Below the pieces are notes generated by a model. It was given only the letters and a program-made list of their open reading frames with translations. It was not told the origin of the DNA and searched no databases. Shown in pieces: positions 2,566-29,033 of a stretch of DNA of 32,000 bases. How positions within the stretch are numbered: position 1 is the stretch's first letter; each line of letters begins with the position of its first letter. Origin of the DNA: Pseudoalteromonas translucida KMM 520 (GTDB lineage Bacteria > Pseudomonadota > Gammaproteobacteria > Enterobacterales > Alteromonadaceae); NCBI RefSeq assembly GCF_001465295.1, contig NZ_CP011034.1, forward strand, positions 30,001 to 62,000, written 5' to 3'. Made by a program: the position numbers and the translations under genes.

Positions 2566-2607
2566 CGTTAATAGGCAGTGTTACTACTGCAAAGAGGTTG
2601 CTTTAAA

Positions 2608-3432
2608 ATGGACAAATATGCGGTTTTTGGAAATCCAATAAAACATTCAAAATCCCCCGCGATACATAAACAATTTGCTATCTCTTTAGGTGAGCAAATC
2701 GACTATCGCGCAATCTTAGCACCTATCGATAACTTTGAAAAAACAGTATCGAATTTTTTTGCTCAAGGCGGTAAGGGAGCTAATGTAACTATGCCCTTTA
2801 AAGAACAAGCTTTTGCAATGGCAGATGAGCTCACACCATTAGCTAAAATTGTCGGTGCAGTAAATACTTTAAAAAAGCAAACAGACGGCACGTTACTAGG
2901 TGATAACACCGACGGCATCGGCTTTGTAAACGATCTGCTGGCAAATAATGTCAGCATTACTGGTAAACGTATTTTAATAATAGGCGCAGGCGGGGCAGCA
3001 AGAGGGGTTGTTTTACCCTTGTTGGATCATCAGCCACAGGAAGTTGTTATTGTTAATCGTACCGCCGAAAAAGCACAAAATTTAGCAAAGTTGTTTGCGC
3101 AACATGGCAAAGTGTCGGGTTATGGTTTTAACAACCTACCAGAAAACGATTATGCGCTTATCATAAACTCCACCTCTAGCAGTATGAATGACGAGCTTCC
3201 AGCACTTGATCAAAAACATATTACTAACTGTGAAGTAGCGTATGACATGTTTTATTCATTGCAAAACACCATTTTTATGAATTGGGTAGCGCAGTATAAT
3301 AGTAATACTAAACTATTGGATGGCAGTGGTATGCTAGTTGGTCAGGCTGCCCAGGCATATTATGTATGGCGTAATAAAATGCCTGCAATATTACCTGTCG
3401 TTAATGCACTAAAACAGGGAACACTTACATGA
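2608..3432 (+). CDS. aroE: Shikimate dehydrogenase
   Basis: AroE motifs are present (FGNPIxHSKSP, Gx[23 protein letters not shown] Rossmann motif). Start chosen at ATG 2608 ([10 protein letters not shown]) with AGAGG at 2592-2596, not the track's GTG at 2578. Confidence 0.93.
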
Positions 3433-20973: not shown

Positions 20974-22365
20974 CTACTTACCTTGTGCGTGTTCTACGTT
21001 TTTTATAAAGGTGCTTATTTGTTTTTTAAGCTCAGGAAAAAAGGGGTTATAGGTTAATCGTTGTAAGGTGGGGTATTGCTTTAAGTTAGCAGCTGTACGT
21101 TCTCCAAATTGCGGCGTTTTTGTGGTTTTACAGGTTTTATATAACTTTTCGCCGCCAATAAAACTGCCGCAATTACGATAAGAAGCGTTAATACCATAAT
21201 GCGGATTTTGTGGTGAGTTAACAATGGCAATATGCGATATACCATGGATTTTTAGACATGCCTCGCTGGCACACTGCGGATTTAATACTCTGTAATCTGC
21301 TGCAAAATTTGGGGGTAAAATAGCGCTGCTACCATAAAGCACTAAGGTATCGAGTTTTTTATAGCGACTTAAATTAGTATTATGTAATGCATTTAATAAT
21401 TTAAGGGTAGCATGGCTATCAATTGTCGCGTCAATATCGCTTATTACGCTAAATACAGGCAATGCCAAAGCTGGGCGCTTACTTAAATTTTTAATGCTAA
21501 CCAATGACATTGCATCATGTGAGGCTGCCGCGGCATTAAGTGGAAACGACTCATACTTGGCAAAATCAACATCGGCGTCTTTATCTATCCAATTTAAAAA
21601 AGGGATTAAATCAAGCCACTTGGCCATCCAACCTTGTTTATTATGCGGCTCAGAGCCCGGTGAAAACAACATAAGCGCCGTTATTTTTGATGAAAGCGCT
21701 TGCGTGATTGCATAGTCTATAAGTAGTGCCGCCCCCGTAGAGTAGCCCCCTAAAATAACCTCATCAAAGTCTTGTGCTGTGCGCTCTATAGCGTAACGCA
21801 CAGCTTGCTGCCATTGCTGTAGGTCTACATCTTGTAACGCACTAGCAGCGCTGCCGTGGCCAGGTAATAAAATAGTGCGTACGGTATAACCTTGCTGGTA
21901 ATACACTTGGGCTAAATCGTGATAGGTAAAAGGGGAGTCGGTAAGGCCGTGCACGAGTAATACCGCTTTTTTATTTTGTGGGTGTTTTAACTCAAAAGGA
22001 GCAATAATATCGGCAATAGTGGGATTAGGCTTACGGCTGCCTTGATTAACTAGTTGCTGATACGTTTGAGTAAACACAGGACATGGCATAGCAGCGCGAG
22101 GATTAGCTACGCTAATATACTGATACGCATGATTTAGGTAGCTGTTAAAAGGGGCACGCGCTTGGTAATCAAAATGCGCTTGGTGGTGCTCCTTTGTATA
22201 GCGTAATAGGCCTTGCTGTTTACTCTTTTTAATAAACTCAAAATCGTTTGCCTGCGTAATACAATTTTCAGCGACAGCTAAGTGAGGAAAAAAGCCAAGC
22301 ATACAAGTTAAAAATATTTTTAAAAATACACTATTATTGTTCATAAACCACTGCATATTGAGCAA
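20974..22365 (-). CDS. Secreted alpha/beta-hydrolase-fold protein
   Basis: Has an HG oxyanion region (LLVHGLTDSP), the nucleophile elbow GGYSTG (GxSxG), and an N-terminal signal-like segment ...FLKIFLTCMLGFFPHLAVA. The start is uncertain: TTG 22365, ATG 22356 or ATG 22344. All three overlap the kinase stop at 22334. Confidence 0.8.
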   Translation of the reverse strand: MLNMQWFMNNNSVFLKIFLTCMLGFFPHLAVAENCITQANDFEFIKKSKQQGLLRYTKEHHQAHFDYQARAPFNSYLNHAYQYISVANPRAAMPCPVFTQTYQQLVNQGSRKPNPTIADIIAPFELKHPQNKKAVLLVHGLTDSPFTYHDLAQVYYQQGYTVRTILLPGHGSAASALQDVDLQQWQQAVRYAIERTAQDFDEVILGGYSTGAALLIDYAITQALSSKITALMLFSPGSEPHNKQGWMAKWLDLIPFLNWIDKDADVDFAKYESFPLNAAAASHDAMSLVSIKNLSKRPALALPVFSVISDIDATIDSHATLKLLNALHNTNLSRYKKLDTLVLYGSSAILPPNFAADYRVLNPQCASEACLKIHGISHIAIVNSPQNPHYGINASYRNCGSFIGGEKLYKTCKTTKTPQFGERTAANLKQYPTLQRLTYNPFFPELKKQISTFIKNVEHAQGK

Positions 22366-25125: not shown

Positions 25126-25581
25126 TTACAATGGTAATTGTTTTTTGCTAAAAGACTGCTTTAATACCACGGTTGATTCTATATTAGCGATACAGCTTAA
25201 GCTCCCTAATTGATGCTTAACAAACTGCTCATAGCTTTCTAAATCATGCGCAATTATTTTTAGTAAATAGTCGTAACTTCCCGATATTACCGAACACTCT
25301 AGCACATGGGTGAGCTTTTCTACGTGTTGTTCAAATTGCAGGGCAGCACTGGCCGAATTTTGATTTAAACGTACAAATGCATACACCAAAACGTTTAGTT
25401 TAAGTGCCTTAGGGTTAATAGCAGCGTGGTAGCCGGTAATGATGTTAGCTTGTTCTAGCTTTTTAATTCGTCTAAGGCAGGGCGTATCTGAGAGGCTAAT
25501 ATGACTGGCAAGATCTGCAACAGACATTCTAGCGTTGGTTTGTAAGGCTATGAGCAATTGCTGATCTTTTTTATCGAGCAT
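25126..25581 (-). CDS. Lrp/AsnC family transcriptional regulator
   Basis: 151 aa. N-terminal HTH (LDKKDQQLLIALQTNARMSVADLASHISLSDTPCLRRIKKLE) and a C-terminal RAM/AsnC_trans_reg-type domain. Divergent from the 25719 operon. Confidence 0.9.
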   Translation of the reverse strand: MLDKKDQQLLIALQTNARMSVADLASHISLSDTPCLRRIKKLEQANIITGYHAAINPKALKLNVLVYAFVRLNQNSASAALQFEQHVEKLTHVLECSVISGSYDYLLKIIAHDLESYEQFVKHQLGSLSCIANIESTVVLKQSFSKKQLPL

Positions 25582-25718
25582 ATATAGATTCTTATTAATT
25601 ATTTTTATATTTGTAGTGATTATTGCTAATGATGTTAATAATTACTAATTTTTTTAGCGCTTTACCCTCATTAAACTCTGTTAGCATTTAGTGATAACTA
25701 TAATAACAGGAAACCATA

Positions 25719-26888
25719 ATGAGCACCCATACAGCCATTTTCGATCGATGGATAAGAGGCACCTTCCCACAGATAAATAGCGAGCTTGAGCAACTTTACT
25801 GGCAACAAGATGATAAAGCCAATGTAGAGGGAATAGGAGAGCCTTTAAAGCAGCAGTTAAAAGATGAAGGTAACGCGCTAATAAGTAATTTATTAGCGGA
25901 GGGGAATACCGATGAGGGGTTTGATAGCGCGTTTGATTTACTCGGTAATGTAGGACTTTTTATGGCGGCGTGTCGTCGTCATGAAATTACCGAGCCAAGC
26001 CGTGAGACCACATCGCCACTGGTCGAGGCGTCGGCATTGGCAATGCACATAGGTGCTTCTATTGGAGTAACGCCGCGCTTTGCGACCGCTCATTTAACCA
26101 CCCACAATAAAGCGTTAAATGGCACGTATAAACGCTTTACTAATTTACCCGACGAAAAATTATTTATTGATTACAACACCCAAGGTATTTTGGCATATAA
26201 ACGCGCCAGCGATGCATTATTAAAAATATTGCCATTAGGTATTTCGCACCCCACCTGTGCCGAGCTATTAAAAGTTGCAAAACAAGCGCTAATAGATGTA
26301 ATTGAATCGAATAATGCACTTTATACTCAGCTAGACACCGAGCGCTTTTTTAATTGTGTGCGCCCTTATTATAAACCGCATCGAGTAGGTAATGAGATAT
26401 ACAGAGGTGCTAATGCGGGAGATTTTGCCGGCATAAACGTTATCGATATGCTACTTGGGCTGTGTAGTGCCAACGAGCCAAGTTATTCACAAATGCTGGT
26501 GGATAAATTTTTATATATGATGCCAGAAGATCAGCAAATATTGCGCGAAGCAATGCGTATGCAAAGCTTTATGGATGACTTTTTACAGGCGCAGCAATAT
26601 AAAGACAGTGACTGGTTTAAATACCACGCAAAGCTATTTATTCAGGTGTGTAAACTACATGGTGACACCGCAATCGGTCATCACAATCAATTGGTCGAAA
26701 AATTTATTGCGCAACCGTCAAAGCAAATGCAGCAGCAACATATGAGTAAAGTAACAGCTAGTGGCCCACCATTACATGTTTTGCTCGATTCGTTAGAAAA
26801 ACTCCGTGATAAACGTGCCAGTGCCAAGCGCGACGATATAAAAACACGTTACGACGATATAAACTTGCTAAAACAGTGGATTAAATAA
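25719..26888 (+). CDS. IDO/PrnB-superfamily haem-dioxygenase-like protein (DUF1864-type)
   Basis: 389 aa. RPYYKPHRVGNEIYRGANAGDFAGINVIDMLLGL resembles PrnB RPFYEPIRVGG..Y.GPGA and IDO ...GGSAGQSS.... FLYMMPEDQ resembles IDO RRYMPPAH. The late GHHNQLVEKF is positioned like a proximal His. AGGAA SD. The call is from memory of these families only. Confidence 0.6.
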   Translation: MSTHTAIFDRWIRGTFPQINSELEQLYWQQDDKANVEGIGEPLKQQLKDEGNALISNLLAEGNTDEGFDSAFDLLGNVGLFMAACRRHEITEPSRETTSPLVEASALAMHIGASIGVTPRFATAHLTTHNKALNGTYKRFTNLPDEKLFIDYNTQGILAYKRASDALLKILPLGISHPTCAELLKVAKQALIDVIESNNALYTQLDTERFFNCVRPYYKPHRVGNEIYRGANAGDFAGINVIDMLLGLCSANEPSYSQMLVDKFLYMMPEDQQILREAMRMQSFMDDFLQAQQYKDSDWFKYHAKLFIQVCKLHGDTAIGHHNQLVEKFIAQPSKQMQQQHMSKVTASGPPLHVLLDSLEKLRDKRASAKRDDIKTRYDDINLLKQWIK

Positions 26889-26889
26889 G

Positions 26890-28014
26890 ATGAATCAACA
26901 CGATTTTTGTATGGCCGAAGGCTGTTATTTATTAAGCCACTCAGTAGGGCGTCCACTGAAAAATAGTCAGCAGCATTTAGCGGCGCATTATTTTTCGCCG
27001 TGGGAATCGTCAAATAAAGAACCTTGGCAGCAATGGTTACCTGCAGTAGAGCAATTTAATGCCGCGTTAGGGCAGTTATTTAATGCACCTAGCGAGCAAT
27101 TTTGTCCGCAAGTTAACTTATCCAGCGGTTTAACTAAGTTGTTAATGTCGCATCCGCGATTACAGCAAAAAAATTGCAAAGTGTTAATGGCACAAAGTGA
27201 CTTTCCAAGTATGGGCTTTGCGATGCAAAAAGCTTTGCCAAAATGTGCGCAAATAACATTTATTCCAGAGCATGAAAACTTAACCGATATTACCGTTTGG
27301 CAGCGTTATTTAACGAATAACATAGATTTAGTTTTTATCAGTCACGTATATTCAAATACAGGGGTGCAAGCCCCTGTGCACGATATTGTTGCTTTGAGTA
27401 AAAAAACGAATAGCTTATCAATCATTGACGTTGCGCAATCTGCAGGGGTTATACCGCTTGATTTAACCGCCTTAAATGCTGACTTTATGATTGGCTCTAG
27501 CGTTAAATGGCTATGTGGCGGCCCTGGCGCTGCTTACTTATGGGTTAACCCGCAACAAATAGCTATTTGCGAGCCTAAAGATGTTGGCTGGTTTTCTCAT
27601 CAAACCCCCTTTGAGTTTGATATAAATCACTTTGTTTATAACAAGGGAGCGCTTAAATTTTGGGGTGGTACTCCCTCAGTTGTACCTTATATTATTGCAG
27701 CCAATAGTATTGCCTATTTTGCCGCATTGGGAATTGATAAGGTTAGGTCACATAACTTAGCAATGCTTGCGCTTATTCAGCAACAGCTGGGTAAATATGT
27801 TGTATCGCCGACGCTGCAGCATCAATGCAGTGGTACTGCTATTTTAAACTTTAACATGCAGCAACAACATGTATTAAATGAGCTTAATAATGCAGGGATT
27901 AGTGTGGATGCGAGAAAGCTTGGTATACGAGTTTCACCGCATGTATATAACAGCGCCGATGCAGTACATAAATTTATAGCAGTTATAAAAAAAGCGATTA
28001 AGGTTGCTGACTAA
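26890..28014 (+). CDS. Kynureninase-family / class V aminotransferase-fold PLP-dependent enzyme
   Basis: 374 aa. GSSVKWLCGGPGAAYLWV resembles the kynureninase PLP-lysine motif YKYLNGGPG, and the YLLSHSVGRP opening resembles YLDGNSLG. ATG lies 1 nt after the upstream stop. Confidence 0.7.
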   Translation: MNQHDFCMAEGCYLLSHSVGRPLKNSQQHLAAHYFSPWESSNKEPWQQWLPAVEQFNAALGQLFNAPSEQFCPQVNLSSGLTKLLMSHPRLQQKNCKVLMAQSDFPSMGFAMQKALPKCAQITFIPEHENLTDITVWQRYLTNNIDLVFISHVYSNTGVQAPVHDIVALSKKTNSLSIIDVAQSAGVIPLDLTALNADFMIGSSVKWLCGGPGAAYLWVNPQQIAICEPKDVGWFSHQTPFEFDINHFVYNKGALKFWGGTPSVVPYIIAANSIAYFAALGIDKVRSHNLAMLALIQQQLGKYVVSPTLQHQCSGTAILNFNMQQQHVLNELNNAGISVDARKLGIRVSPHVYNSADAVHKFIAVIKKAIKVAD

Positions 28015-28627: not shown

Positions 28628-28745
28628 AGACTTGCTTACATCCATGTAATCAATCGCTACGCGACGCTTGCAGCGGCCCAAAATGTTCCAGACATTTTGT
28701 TGAACCCTGTCGAGGGATCTCACCCTCCCAATTTAGTATTGGTGT
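28610..28745 (-). pseudogene. tRNA-derived remnant: intact tRNA-Ser 3' end (18 nt) preceded by about 118 nt of non-tRNA sequence with degenerate T-arm-like pieces
   Basis: The minus strand reads ...GGAGGGTGAGATCCCTCGACAGGGTTCAAC...(perfect 7-bp hairpin AAAATGT-ctgga-ACATTTT)...CTATCCCTCCCTCTCCACCA. I could not draw a D-arm, an anticodon arm or a matching 5' acceptor strand. Confidence 0.4.
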
Positions 28746-28811
28746 TAAATTTTAGGCACAAAAAAACCACAATTAAGTGGTTTAAATTAAGTATGGTGGA
28801 GAGGGAGGGAT
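28746..28811. repeat. 66-bp direct repeat, copy 2 (overlaps the 3' end of the intact tRNA-Ser(GCT) and its terminator)
   Basis: Identical to 28562-28627. Confidence 0.95.
28760..28783 (-). terminator. tRNA-Ser(GCT) rho-independent terminator (duplicated at 28576-28599)
   Basis: Minus strand: AAACCAC-ttaatt-GTGGTTT followed by TTTT, 10 nt after the tRNA CCA end. Confidence 0.75.
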
Positions 28812-28886
28812 TCGAACCCTCGATAGAGCTACAAACTCTATACTCCCTTAGCAGGGGAGCTCCTTCGGCCACTCGGACACCTCTCC
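28794..28886 (-). tRNA. serV: tRNA-Ser (anticodon GCT)
   Basis: 93-nt class II tRNA: GGAGAGG-TG-TCC-GAGTGGCCGAA-GGA..CTCCC-CTGCTAA-GGGAG, long variable arm ATAGAG/CTCTAT, T-arm GAGGG-TTCGAAT-CCCTC, acceptor CCTCTCC-A-CCA. Confidence 0.95.
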
Positions 28887-28942
28887 AACGCATAACCGTT
28901 TATTTATTGATGGAAGTAAAAATTAAGCCACCAATATAAATG

Positions 28943-29033
28943 TGGTGGAGAGATAGGGATTTGAACCCTAGATAGGCTACAAACCTATGCCGGTTTTCAA
29001 GACCGGTGCATTCGACCACTCTGCCATCTCTCC
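28943..29033 (-). tRNA. serT: tRNA-Ser (anticodon TGA)
   Basis: 91-nt class II tRNA: GGAGAGA-TG-GCA-GAGTGGTCGAA-TGC..CCGGT-CTTGAAA-ACCGG, long variable arm, T-arm TAGGG-TTCAAAT-CCCTA, acceptor TCTCTCC-A-CCA. Confidence 0.95.

What the first reader, a model, noticed from the sequence alone, without database searches (positions are those of the whole stretch)
25126..28014. Candidate non-canonical kynurenine-type pathway: Lrp/AsnC regulator divergent from an IDO/PrnB-like haem protein + kynureninase-like enzyme
The 389-aa protein lacks TDO (KynA) features. It does carry motifs I associate with the IDO/PrnB haem-dioxygenase superfamily: RPYYKPHRVGNEIYRGANAGDFAG..., FLYMMPEDQ, and a late GHHNQLVEKF placed like a proximal His. 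One nt downstream begins a 374-aa PLP enzyme with a kynureninase-like lysine motif (VKWLCGGPGAAYLWV). The divergent regulator is Lrp/AsnC-type, the same class as KynR, the kynurenine-responsive regulator of the Pseudomonas kyn genes. The locus therefore resembles kynA + kynU under a KynR analogue, but with the dioxygenase swapped for an IDO/PrnB-like protein. No formamidase (KynB) is present in the window. Bacterial IDO-like proteins of this type have, to my knowledge, no established substrate. The pair could act on tryptophan or on a different indole or aromatic amine.
Basis: partly seen in the sequence, partly recalled or inferred. Interest (0 to 1): 0.65.

Follow-up and report, generated by a model that had tools for sequence, protein, structure and literature searches.

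The report
Orphan IDO-like haem enzyme operon
A marine Pseudoalteromonas carries a conserved unit of an Lrp-type regulator, an IDO/PrnB-like haem enzyme and a kynureninase-like PLP enzyme; it is the counterpart of the Shewanella SO4414 gene pair, whose haem protein has a solved structure but, as far as I could find, no known substrate.

Summary
Three ORFs sit exactly where stated: an Lrp/AsnC regulator, divergent from a 389-aa haem protein, which is followed after one nucleotide by a 374-aa PLP enzyme.

- **Haem protein:** it is a full-length PF08933 (PrnB family) member. It is 73.6% identical to Shewanella oneidensis SO4414, whose crystal structures exist with and without haem. It keeps the IDO1-type Phe-Phe/Arg motif, the G-x-x-A-G loop, the loop serine and the proximal His.
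- **PLP enzyme:** its nearest solved relatives are kynureninases. It keeps most of their pocket residues. It fails the curated kynureninase model, and an invariant Val replaces the Tyr that precedes the PLP lysine.
- **Linkage:** the two genes are adjacent in 79 of 80 genomes from several marine genera. They are swapped in order in a distant clade and fused in one metagenome contig.
- **Regulation:** the promoter region holds a conserved extended -10 element and three Lrp-type boxes.
- **Missing parts:** no formamidase or TDO lies nearby.

The best reading is an amino-acid-induced, two-step oxidative cleavage of tryptophan or a close analogue. The substrate is unproven. This is a new member of a known, structurally solved orphan family, of moderate interest.

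The parts
25126..25581 (-). Lrp/AsnC-family transcription regulator (151 aa), divergent from the operon
   Evidence: Pfam HTH_AsnC-type 4.7e-15 plus AsnC_trans_reg 6.3e-19. It scores below the cut-off for true Lrp (111 vs 233 bits), so it is a paralogue. It is divergently adjacent in 65 of 80 genome loci and also beside distant family members (L086 34% identical, L139 32%).
25582..25718 (.). 137-bp AT-rich divergent control region
   Evidence: Sequence. Anchored comparison of 27 non-redundant upstream regions from several genera shows conserved blocks.
25586..25599 (.). Weak 'far' Lrp-type box next to the regulator's start codon (inferred)
   Evidence: It lies at the position of the conserved block GGt.aAatTca.TAaT (-95 to -80 from the extended -10) in the anchored comparison. 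The window's own copy matches poorly.
25614..25630 (.). Distal Lrp-type operator TAGTGATTATTGCTAAT (inferred)
   Evidence: It matches the conserved block TAgTGaAttTC.CTaaT, a near-palindrome AGTGAA/TTCACT. The block sits at a fixed distance (-66 to -49) from the extended -10 across genera.
25652..25669 (.). Proximal Lrp-type box TTTTAGCGCTTTACCCTC over the -35 region (inferred)
   Evidence: It matches the conserved block TTTTg.cGAtTTac.CTc at -27 to -10, which holds the highest-information columns of the anchored comparison.
25679..25687 (+). Extended -10 promoter element TGTTAGCAT of the operon (inferred)
   Evidence: A TGnTAnnnT element was found in all 27 non-redundant upstream regions compared, 37-59 nt before the start codon in 24 of them and 75-92 nt in three. 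The search itself selects for this pattern, so its presence is not independent evidence. The generic promoter scan found no good -35 partner, as expected for an activator-dependent promoter.
25719..26888 (+). IDO/PrnB-superfamily haem protein (389 aa), orthologue of S. oneidensis SO4414. Key residues: F210, F211, R215, G230-D235, H322, S348
   Evidence: PF08933 696 bits. It is 73.6% identical to SO4414, PDB 1ZEE/2NWB. The AlphaFold model (pLDDT 92) matches 2NWB at TM 0.95, PrnB at about 0.7 and IDO1/IDO2 at about 0.65. An AGGAA ribosome-binding site lies 7 nt upstream.
26890..28014 (+). Kynureninase-like class-V PLP enzyme (374 aa), probably translationally coupled. Key residues: S18, W46, F105, D180, Q183, V205, K206, C209, W234, T261, R347
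   Evidence: Aminotran_5 1e-27. The family profile matches P. fluorescens kynureninase at 1e-26 and human kynureninase at 8e-22, against SufS at 5e-19. The residue table covers 121 relatives. The gene is adjacent to the haem gene in 79 of 80 genomes.

Best explanation
This is a self-contained, amino-acid-responsive, two-enzyme catabolic module. The Lrp-type regulator binds three boxes in the divergent control region. In response to an amino-acid-like effector it controls an activator-type promoter with an extended -10 element. The haem enzyme binds an alpha-amino acid with an indole or aromatic side chain, most likely tryptophan or a close analogue. It holds the amino-acid moiety through R215, the GANAGD loop and S348. 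It then uses O2 at the His322-ligated haem to oxidise and open the ring, as IDO does. The product would be an N-formylkynurenine-type beta-aroyl-alanine. It passes to the co-translated kynureninase-like PLP enzyme, which cleaves the C-beta/C-gamma bond to give L-alanine plus an (N-formyl)anthranilate-type acid. No formamidase is part of the unit. The PLP enzyme therefore either accepts the N-formyl compound directly or relies on unlinked or spontaneous deformylation. Shown: the families, the conserved residues, the gene linkage and the conserved promoter blocks. Inferred: the substrate, the reaction order, the products and the effector.
For: **Haem enzyme.** It is a full-length PF08933 member. 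Its predicted fold matches haem-bound SO4414 at TM 0.95. A published holo/apo comparison uses 2NWB as the haem-bound and 1ZEE as the haem-free form (PMC3184988). The family profile reaches PrnB at 1.6e-24 and IDO1 at 2e-9. IDO1's F226-F227-x3-R231 motif corresponds to window F210-F211-x3-R215. IDO1's G-G-S-A-G loop corresponds to G230-A-N-A-G234. The IDO1 H346 and PrnB H313 position corresponds to H322. The loop serine or threonine that closes over the substrate carboxylate corresponds to S348.

**PLP enzyme.** Kynureninases are its best solved relatives. It is 23.7% and 22.7% identical to the bacterial and human enzymes, which are themselves only 26.1% alike. The equivalents of S36, W64, F129, D201, K227, W256, G281-T282 and human R434 are conserved in 121 of 121 relatives. 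The KYNU_C domain is detected in 12 of 16 relatives.

**Coupling.** The genes are one nucleotide apart and adjacent in 79 of 80 genomes while the flanks change. The order is inverted but still adjacent in a 43%-identical clade. One contig encodes a single fused polypeptide.

**Regulation.** The divergent Lrp gene is present in 65 of 80 loci and beside distant members. Conserved boxes and an extended -10 element lie in the control region. KynR, which controls kynABU, is of the same class and senses L-kynurenine (PMC4349456).

**Link to tryptophan elsewhere in the family.** A distant PF08933 member sits directly upstream of a trpS gene (254 bits against a cut-off of 177), with a TrpR-like gene nearby.
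Against: - The PLP enzyme fails the curated kynureninase model: 86.9 vs 246.4 bits here, and no relative comes near the cut-off.
- It invariantly has Val where kynureninases have Tyr226, Met/Ile for Asp132, Gln for His204 and Cys for Asn230. From my own knowledge, not checked here, Y226F cripples P. fluorescens kynureninase.
- From memory of Forouhar et al., PNAS 2007 (the paper is not held), purified SO4414 showed no dioxygenase activity on L-tryptophan.
- PrnB, the only characterised PF08933 member, is not a dioxygenase.
- No formamidase, TDO or transporter is linked in the window ORFs scanned or recurs in the 80 genome loci.
- In a soil-metagenome clade only 28 of 80 loci, roughly 40% of those with enough flank by my hand count, have the PLP partner next door.
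Confidence: 0.4

Rival explanations
1. Plain canonical kynurenine pathway. The two proteins would be isofunctional replacements for KynA (Trp to N-formylkynurenine) and KynU (kynurenine to anthranilate plus alanine), with a conventional KynB formamidase encoded elsewhere in the genome. Some database names already imply this.
For: Some sources name relatives 'tryptophan 2,3-dioxygenase KynA' and 'kynureninase'. IDO-type substrate residues are conserved, as are most kynureninase pocket residues, including the bacterial-type G-T pair. A KynR-class regulator is adjacent.
Against: The PLP enzyme fails the kynureninase equivalog cut-off and lacks the conserved Tyr and Asp. No kynB is linked in any of the 80 genome loci. 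From memory, SO4414 was reported inactive on L-tryptophan. NCBI's own pipeline names the two proteins only 'PrnB family protein' and 'aminotransferase class V-fold PLP-dependent enzyme'.
Confidence: 0.2
2. Non-dioxygenase chemistry in small-molecule biosynthesis. The haem enzyme would carry out a PrnB-like rearrangement or a MarE-like mono-oxygenation of an indole amino acid, possibly a halogenated or hydroxylated tryptophan common in marine habitats. The PLP enzyme would then process that product into a metabolite or signal, rather than the pair serving catabolism.
For: The protein belongs to the PrnB Pfam family, and PrnB is its nearest characterised structural relative after SO4414. Members of this superfamily perform varied oxygenations in natural-product pathways (PMC11791213). 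The divergent active site of the PLP enzyme suggests a substrate other than kynurenine. From memory, SO4414 lacks activity on L-Trp.
Against: There is no halogenase, no other tailoring enzyme and no exporter. Only the two enzymes and the regulator are conserved. Sequence conservation across genera is very high (70-90%), and presence looks chromosomal and core-like, which fits housekeeping catabolism better. The G-A-N-A-G-D loop resembles IDO1's G-G-S-A-G-Q more than the P. fluorescens PrnB loop.
Confidence: 0.2
3. The similarity to kynurenine enzymes is only at fold level. The PLP protein would be a C-S or C-Se lyase, or a transaminase of the SufS/CsdA/C-DES type, acting on a non-aromatic amino acid. 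The haem protein would be a redox or gas sensor or an accessory oxidase.
For: The SufS model scores almost as well as the kynureninase model (81.5 vs 86.9 bits) and hits 16 of 16 relatives. The D-x-A-Q motif (Q183) is SufS-like. Two family-specific invariant cysteines are present, C72 and C209.
Against: The N-terminal kynureninase-specific residues (S18, W46, W49) and the KYNU_C domain align only with kynureninases. No Cys lies in the loop after the carboxylate-binding Arg, R347-V-S-P-H-V-Y-N, where SufS carries its catalytic Cys (sequence). The haem protein keeps a complete amino-acid binding set like IDO and PrnB, which a sensor would not need.
Confidence: 0.07

Closest known systems
Shewanella oneidensis SO4414 (PDB 1ZEE apo, 2NWB ferric-haem) and its downstream PLP gene
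   Same: The haem protein is an orthologue: 73.6% identical over 383 residues, and the model superposes on 2NWB at TM 0.95. In loci of the S. oneidensis relatives, such as S. decolorationis L036, a PLP gene follows in the same arrangement.
   Different: The window is from Pseudoalteromonas. It has the divergent Lrp-type regulator, which the S. oneidensis-clade loci lack. Function is unknown in both. The only functional statement I know of, no Trp dioxygenase activity, is from memory.
PrnB, monodechloroaminopyrrolnitrin synthase (Pseudomonas; PDB 2V7I, 9DFG)
   Same: Same Pfam family and fold (TM about 0.7). The proximal His, the R-P-[YF]-[YF]...R-V-G motif and a carboxylate-binding glycine-rich loop plus loop serine are shared.
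   Different: Only 17-18% identical. No prnA, prnC or prnD neighbours. Partnered with a PLP enzyme and an Lrp regulator instead.
Indoleamine 2,3-dioxygenase IDO1/IDO2
   Same: Same superfamily: profile E 2e-9 and TM about 0.65. Equivalents of F226-F227-R231, the G262-A264 loop, H346-x-Q-[IL]-V-x-K-[YF]-I and the JK-loop Thr/Ser are present.
   Different: Does not hit the IDO Pfam model as a single sequence. About 14% identical. Activity on tryptophan is unproven.
Kynureninase KynU (P. fluorescens 1QZ9; human 2HZP/3E9K; TIGR01814)
   Same: Best solved relatives. The PLP Lys and Asp, the substrate Arg and the aromatic pocket residues are shared, and the C-terminal domain is shared at family level.
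   Different: Fails the curated cut-off (86.9 vs 246.4 bits). Tyr226 is Val, Asp132 is Met, His204 is Gln and Asn230 is Cys, all invariant or nearly so. The protein is about 40 residues shorter.
KynR (PA2082 / Bxe_A0736), kynurenine-responsive Lrp/AsnC regulator of kynABU
   Same: Same regulator class, placed beside genes for oxidative tryptophan breakdown.

Membership tests
PF08933 (PrnB / former DUF1864), SO4414-like subfamily | Full-length match above the Pfam gathering score | tested here: met
   696.2 bits against a cut-off of 27, covering residues 3-387 of 389.
PF08933 (PrnB / former DUF1864), SO4414-like subfamily | IDO-like all-helical fold matching the solved member | tested here: met
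   Model with pLDDT 92 and pTM 0.90. Foldseek gives 2NWB at TM 0.95 and rmsd 1.0.
PF08933 (PrnB / former DUF1864), SO4414-like subfamily | Proximal histidine ligand to haem | tested here: met
   H322 aligns with PrnB His313, and the motif aligns with IDO1 H346-LQIVTKYI. It is present in 15 of 16 diverse members.
PF08933 (PrnB / former DUF1864), SO4414-like subfamily | Binds haem | not testable with these tools
   The 73.6%-identical orthologue was crystallised with ferric haem (2NWB title; holo/apo pair in PMC3184988).
PrnB proper (pyrrolnitrin biosynthesis) | Close similarity to PrnB and a prnABCD gene context | tested here: not met
   Single-sequence E is only 1e-10 over residues 67-273, with 17-18% identity. 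No halogenase or prnC/prnD-like neighbour recurs in the 80 genome loci, and none was found among the window ORFs scanned.
IDO (haem dioxygenase acting on tryptophan) | Substrate-binding residues F226/F227/R231, the G262-A264 loop and the JK-loop hydroxyl residue | tested here: met
   F210/F211/R215, G230-A-N-A-G234 and S348 in the profile alignment to IDO1. R215 and G349 are invariant, and S348 is conserved in at least 90%.
IDO (haem dioxygenase acting on tryptophan) | Catalyses Trp to N-formylkynurenine | not testable with these tools
From memory, SO4414 was reported inactive (Forouhar 2007, not held).
TDO / KynA (PF03301) | Match to the TDO model or to TDO structures | tested here: not met
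   No TDO family appears in the Pfam scan. No TDO chain appears among 30 PDB profile hits at E up to 10.
Kynureninase (TIGR01814, EC 3.7.1.3) | Score at or above the curated equivalog cut-off | tested here: not met
   86.9 bits against 246.4. The best of 16 relatives reaches E 6e-28, still far below the cut-off.
Kynureninase (TIGR01814, EC 3.7.1.3) | PLP lysine, pyridine-N aspartate and substrate-carboxylate arginine | tested here: met
   K206, D180 and R347, each in 121 of 121 relatives. They align to K227/K276, D201/D250 and human R434.
Kynureninase (TIGR01814, EC 3.7.1.3) | Tyr immediately before the PLP lysine (Y226/Y275) and Asp of the F-P-x-D motif (D132/D168) | tested here: not met
   V205 in 121 of 121 relatives. 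Position 108 is Met in 113 and Ile in 8 of 121.
Kynureninase (TIGR01814, EC 3.7.1.3) | Aromatic-pocket residues (S36, W64, F129, W256, G281-T282) | tested here: met
   S18, W46, F105, W234 and G260-T261 are all invariant.
Kynureninase (TIGR01814, EC 3.7.1.3) | Kynureninase C-terminal domain (PF22580) | tested here: inconclusive
   E 0.13 for the window protein itself, but E up to 0.01 in 12 of 16 relatives, best 1.5e-8.
Cysteine desulfurase SufS/CsdA | Catalytic cysteine in the loop after the carboxylate-binding Arg; score above cut-off | tested here: not met
   81.5 bits against 475. The sequence R347-V-S-P-H-V-Y-N has no Cys. The position of the SufS catalytic Cys is from my own knowledge.
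KynR-type Lrp/AsnC regulator | AsnC-type HTH plus ligand-binding domain, divergent from the genes it controls | tested here: met
   Both domains are present. The gene is divergent in 65 of 80 loci.
KynR-type Lrp/AsnC regulator | Orthology to PA2082 and response to L-kynurenine | not tested
   No KynR sequence or operator was available. Knoten 2011 is not held.

The most novel reading that the evidence does not exclude
The pair is a formamidase-independent route. The SO4414-type haem enzyme would oxidise tryptophan, or a marine-typical substituted tryptophan that L-Trp assays would miss. The Tyr-less kynureninase-like enzyme would be a new hydrolase specific for the N-formyl or substituted ring-opened product, yielding alanine and an N-formyl- or substituted anthranilate. 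This would assign a first function to the orphan 'bacterial IDO-like' family and define a new PLP hydrolase specificity.
Probability: 0.2. Interest if true: 0.65.

Novelty: new member of a known kind. Interest (0 to 1): 0.4.

Why it matters
The SO4414-type haem protein has had a crystal structure since 2005-2006, yet I could find no demonstrated substrate. It sits between IDO, a major drug target, and PrnB in the haem-dependent aromatic oxygenase superfamily. The family is small: 333 clusters at 50% identity among 1.84 billion representatives. It is nonetheless highly conserved in abundant marine heterotrophs such as Pseudoalteromonas, Shewanella, Colwellia, Thalassotalea and Paraglaciecola. 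Knowing its reaction would add a branch to bacterial tryptophan or indole metabolism. It could also reveal a kynureninase variant that works without the usual catalytic tyrosine. The window adds nothing unique over the Shewanella locus. It does provide a version with the regulator and a clear operator and promoter layout, which makes induction experiments simple.

Tried and rejected
- **Literature.** No functional study of this family turned up. The key papers could not be read: Forouhar 2007, Shin/Wang/Liu 2021 and Knoten 2011 are not held.
- **PLP enzyme structure.** Prediction from a 16-sequence alignment gave a poor model (pLDDT 64). I did not use it for a fold search.
- **Motif discovery.** An EM motif search timed out. 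A strict-palindrome enumeration returned only AT-rich noise. Anchoring on the extended -10 element worked instead.
- **Further gene fusions.** Other odd-length representatives (P0266, P0267, P0292, P0307, P0336) are frameshifted or chimeric metagenome ORFs, not fusions.
- **Extra pathway genes.** I looked in 80 genome loci, 10 loci of distant members, 80 metagenome loci and one Novosphingobium megaplasmid. Nothing recurs with the haem gene apart from the PLP gene and the Lrp regulator. Soil clades sometimes have an MFS transporter, a SelO-like gene, amidohydrolases or a TonB-dependent receptor nearby.
- **Neighbouring hydrolase as formamidase.** I considered the alpha/beta-hydrolase at 20974-22365. 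I rejected it because its N-terminus looks like a signal peptide and it is syntenic only within Pseudoalteromonas.
- **Horizontal transfer.** GC content is unremarkable across the locus.


Full report
**Observation.** The quoted peptide motifs are all present. The upstream gene ends with TAA at 26886-26888, and a single base separates it from the ATG of the next gene. GC content is unremarkable across the locus. The surroundings are ordinary chromosome: an rRNA operon, tRNA genes, a hybrid sensor kinase and housekeeping genes. The closest relatives of both enzymes come from Pseudoalteromonas. The haem protein's best hit is 91% identical, and the PLP enzyme's best named hit is 81%.

**The haem protein.**
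- It matches Pfam PF08933 (PrnB, formerly DUF1864) over its whole length at 696 bits.
- Its best solved relative is S. oneidensis SO4414 (1ZEE, 2NWB), 73.6% identical over 383 residues.
- An AlphaFold model (pLDDT 92) superposes on 2NWB at TM 0.95. The PDB title of 2NWB is 'putative 2,3-dioxygenase (SO4414) ... in complex with ferric heme'. PrnB follows at TM about 0.7, then IDO1 and IDO2 at about 0.65.
- A published holo/apo comparison uses 2NWB and 1ZEE as the haem-bound and haem-free pair (PMC3184988).
- A profile of 16 diverse members reaches PrnB at 1.6e-24 and human IDO1 at 2e-9. It reaches no TDO.
- The residues that hold the amino-acid part of the substrate in IDO1 and PrnB are all present:
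  - F210-F211-x3-R215 corresponds to IDO1 F226-F227-x3-R231.
  - G230-A-N-A-G234 corresponds to IDO1 G-G-S-A-G. It also corresponds to the Gly210/Gly211 carboxylate site described for Flavobacteriales PrnB in PMC11791213.
  - S348 in T-A-S-G-P-P corresponds to the loop Ser319 of that PrnB and to the JK-loop Thr of IDO1.
  - H322-N-Q-L-V-E-K-F-I corresponds to IDO1 H346-L-Q-I-V-T-K-Y-I and to PrnB His313.

The protein very probably binds an alpha-amino acid above a His-ligated haem.

**The PLP enzyme.**
- It is a class-V fold enzyme (Aminotran_5, 1e-27).
- Kynureninases are its best solved relatives: 3e-20 for the single sequence, and 1e-26 (P. fluorescens) and 8e-22 (human) for the family profile, against 5e-19 for SufS.
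- It is 23.7% and 22.7% identical to the bacterial and human enzymes, which are themselves only 26.1% alike in the same alignment.
- It nevertheless scores 86.9 bits against NCBI's curated kynureninase cut-off of 246.4, and no relative does much better.
- A residue table over 121 relatives reproduces the published numbering of the reference enzymes, which validates the alignment.
  - Invariant equivalents are present for S36, W64, F129, D201, K227, W256, G281-T282 and human R434.
  - Invariant or near-invariant departures: Tyr226 is Val205, Asp132 is Met/Ile108, His204 is Gln183 (as in SufS), Asn230 is Cys209 and Asn35 is His17. There is also a family-specific Cys72.
- The kynureninase C-terminal domain is detected in 12 of 16 relatives but not significantly in the window protein itself.
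- There is no cysteine where SufS carries its catalytic one.

I therefore call it kynureninase-like but not a demonstrated kynureninase. From my own knowledge, unchecked here, Tyr226 matters for catalysis in the Pseudomonas enzyme. Its consistent absence suggests an altered mechanism or substrate.

**Linkage.**
- In 80 genome loci the PLP gene directly follows the haem gene in 79. The genera are Pseudoalteromonas, Shewanella, Thalassotalea, Colwellia, Paraglaciecola, Glaciecola and Simiduia. The divergent Lrp gene is present in 65.
- All-against-all clustering of neighbours shows that nothing else is shared beyond genus-level synteny.
- The Lrp gene is missing in the S. oneidensis group and a few others.
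- Among more distant members:
  - a 53%-identical one has the PLP gene downstream;
  - a 43%-identical one has it immediately upstream, so the order is swapped;
  - a 36%-identical one keeps a divergent AsnC regulator, with two RidA genes but no PLP gene;
  - a roughly 30%-identical one lies directly upstream of a bona fide trpS, with a TrpR-like gene nearby.
- One 2.8-kb metagenome contig encodes the two enzymes as a single 767-aa polypeptide. This is a single observation, so a sequencing artefact cannot be excluded.
- In a soil-metagenome clade only 28 of 80 loci have a PLP family member adjacent, roughly 40% of those with enough flank by my hand count. The coupling is therefore tight in the marine clade and looser elsewhere.
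- The whole family is small: 333 clusters at 50% identity in 1.84 billion representatives.

**Regulation.** I aligned 27 non-redundant upstream regions without gaps on a shared TGnTAnnnT element. That element is TGTTAGCAT at 25679-25687 in the window, and it lies 37-59 nt before the ATG in 24 of the 27 regions and 75-92 nt in the other three. The alignment reveals three conserved blocks:
- a proximal block TTTTg.cGAtTTac.CTc over the -35 region (window 25652-25669);
- a distal near-palindrome TAgTGaAttTC.CTaaT (window 25614-25630);
- a weaker far block beside the regulator's start.

This is the layout expected for an Lrp/AsnC-type protein that binds several sites and controls both divergent promoters. 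KynR, the regulator of kynABU, is of this class and senses L-kynurenine (PMC4349456). Whether the window's regulator is its orthologue could not be tested.

**Mechanism.** The best-supported reading has three steps. An Lrp-type regulator turns on the operon in response to an amino-acid-like effector. The IDO-like haem enzyme oxidises, and probably ring-opens, tryptophan or a close analogue. The co-translated kynureninase-like enzyme cleaves the product to alanine plus an aromatic acid.

No formamidase is linked, so the PLP enzyme may take the N-formyl intermediate directly. That would also account for its divergent active site.

Several points count against this reading:
- the failed kynureninase membership test;
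- the missing Tyr and Asp;
- my recollection that SO4414 was inactive on L-Trp;
- the non-dioxygenase chemistry of PrnB, the family's only characterised member;
- the partial linkage in soil clades.

Rivals are the plain canonical pathway with an unlinked KynB, a PrnB- or MarE-like biosynthetic role on a modified tryptophan, and a merely fold-level resemblance with a C-S-lyase-type PLP enzyme.

**Novelty and verdict.** It is a new member of the SO4414-type family. That family is already solved structurally, and some databases already label it KynA/kynureninase. I found no functional characterisation in the searchable literature, so the substrate question appears to remain open. Interest is moderate at 0.4. 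It is a well-defined orphan enzyme pair with clear experiments to run, not a surprise to specialists.

Noticed in passing
L081:313-2616: A single metagenome contig encodes the PrnB-like and PLP domains as one 767-aa polypeptide joined by a short linker (APNGKINK). A divergent Lrp fragment lies upstream. It could be a natural fusion or a lost stop codon.
   Followed up: partly
L088:4469-6783 and L089:1997-4311: A distant PF08933 member (about 30% identical) lies directly upstream of a tryptophan-tRNA ligase gene (TIGR00233, 254 bits against a cut-off of 177). A TrpR-like gene lies about 3.7 kb upstream. This looks like a separate tryptophan-linked branch of the family.
   Followed up: partly
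L086:338-3129: A 36%-identical family member keeps a divergent AsnC regulator. It is flanked by two RidA (enamine/imine deaminase) genes instead of the class-V PLP gene.
   Followed up: no
L010:9172-10295; L061; L072: In Pseudoalteromonas sp. RW-H-Ap-1 the PLP gene appears split into 284-aa and 117-aa ORFs, possibly by a frameshift. One Glaciecola MAG lacks the PLP gene next to the haem gene. Shewanella sp. HN-41 has a shortened PLP ORF.
   Followed up: no
window:27998-28486 (-): A 162-aa gene for a coiled-coil protein with a signal-peptide-like N-terminus and a weak DUF4124 match converges on the PLP gene and overlaps its last 17 nt. It is conserved there only in Pseudoalteromonas (33 of 80 loci).
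   Followed up: partly
window:22334-25051 (-) and 20974-22365 (-): A hybrid sensor kinase (MASE1-CHASE-HisKA-HATPase-receiver) overlaps by 32 nt a 463-aa alpha/beta-hydrolase whose N-terminus looks like a signal peptide. Both are syntenic with the operon only within Pseudoalteromonas.
   Followed up: partly
window:10464-16289 (+): A co-directional cluster encodes DUF350, a spermine/spermidine-synthase-domain protein, DUF2170, a PspA/IM30 protein and DUF4178. It resembles a membrane-stress cluster. My recollection that it resembles the E. coli yjf genes was not checked.
   Followed up: no
window:2116-2565 (-): A truncated (bacterial-like) globin gene lies between coproporphyrinogen III oxidase (1080-2054) and shikimate dehydrogenase (2578-3432).
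   Followed up: no
window:4829-10160 (+); 28794-29033 (-): A complete rRNA operon (16S, tRNA-Ile, tRNA-Ala, 23S, 5S) and a tandem pair of tRNA-Ser genes (GCT, TGA). The 80-aa ORF at 28697-28939 overlaps these tRNA genes on the opposite strand and is probably spurious.
   Followed up: yes
L171:7087-14109 (Novosphingobium megaplasmid NZ_CP117882.1): The only plasmid-borne relative (52% identical) has no PLP partner. It sits among three amidohydrolase genes, a cupin/CDGSH protein and a TonB-dependent receptor. The record carries no annotation there.
   Followed up: partly
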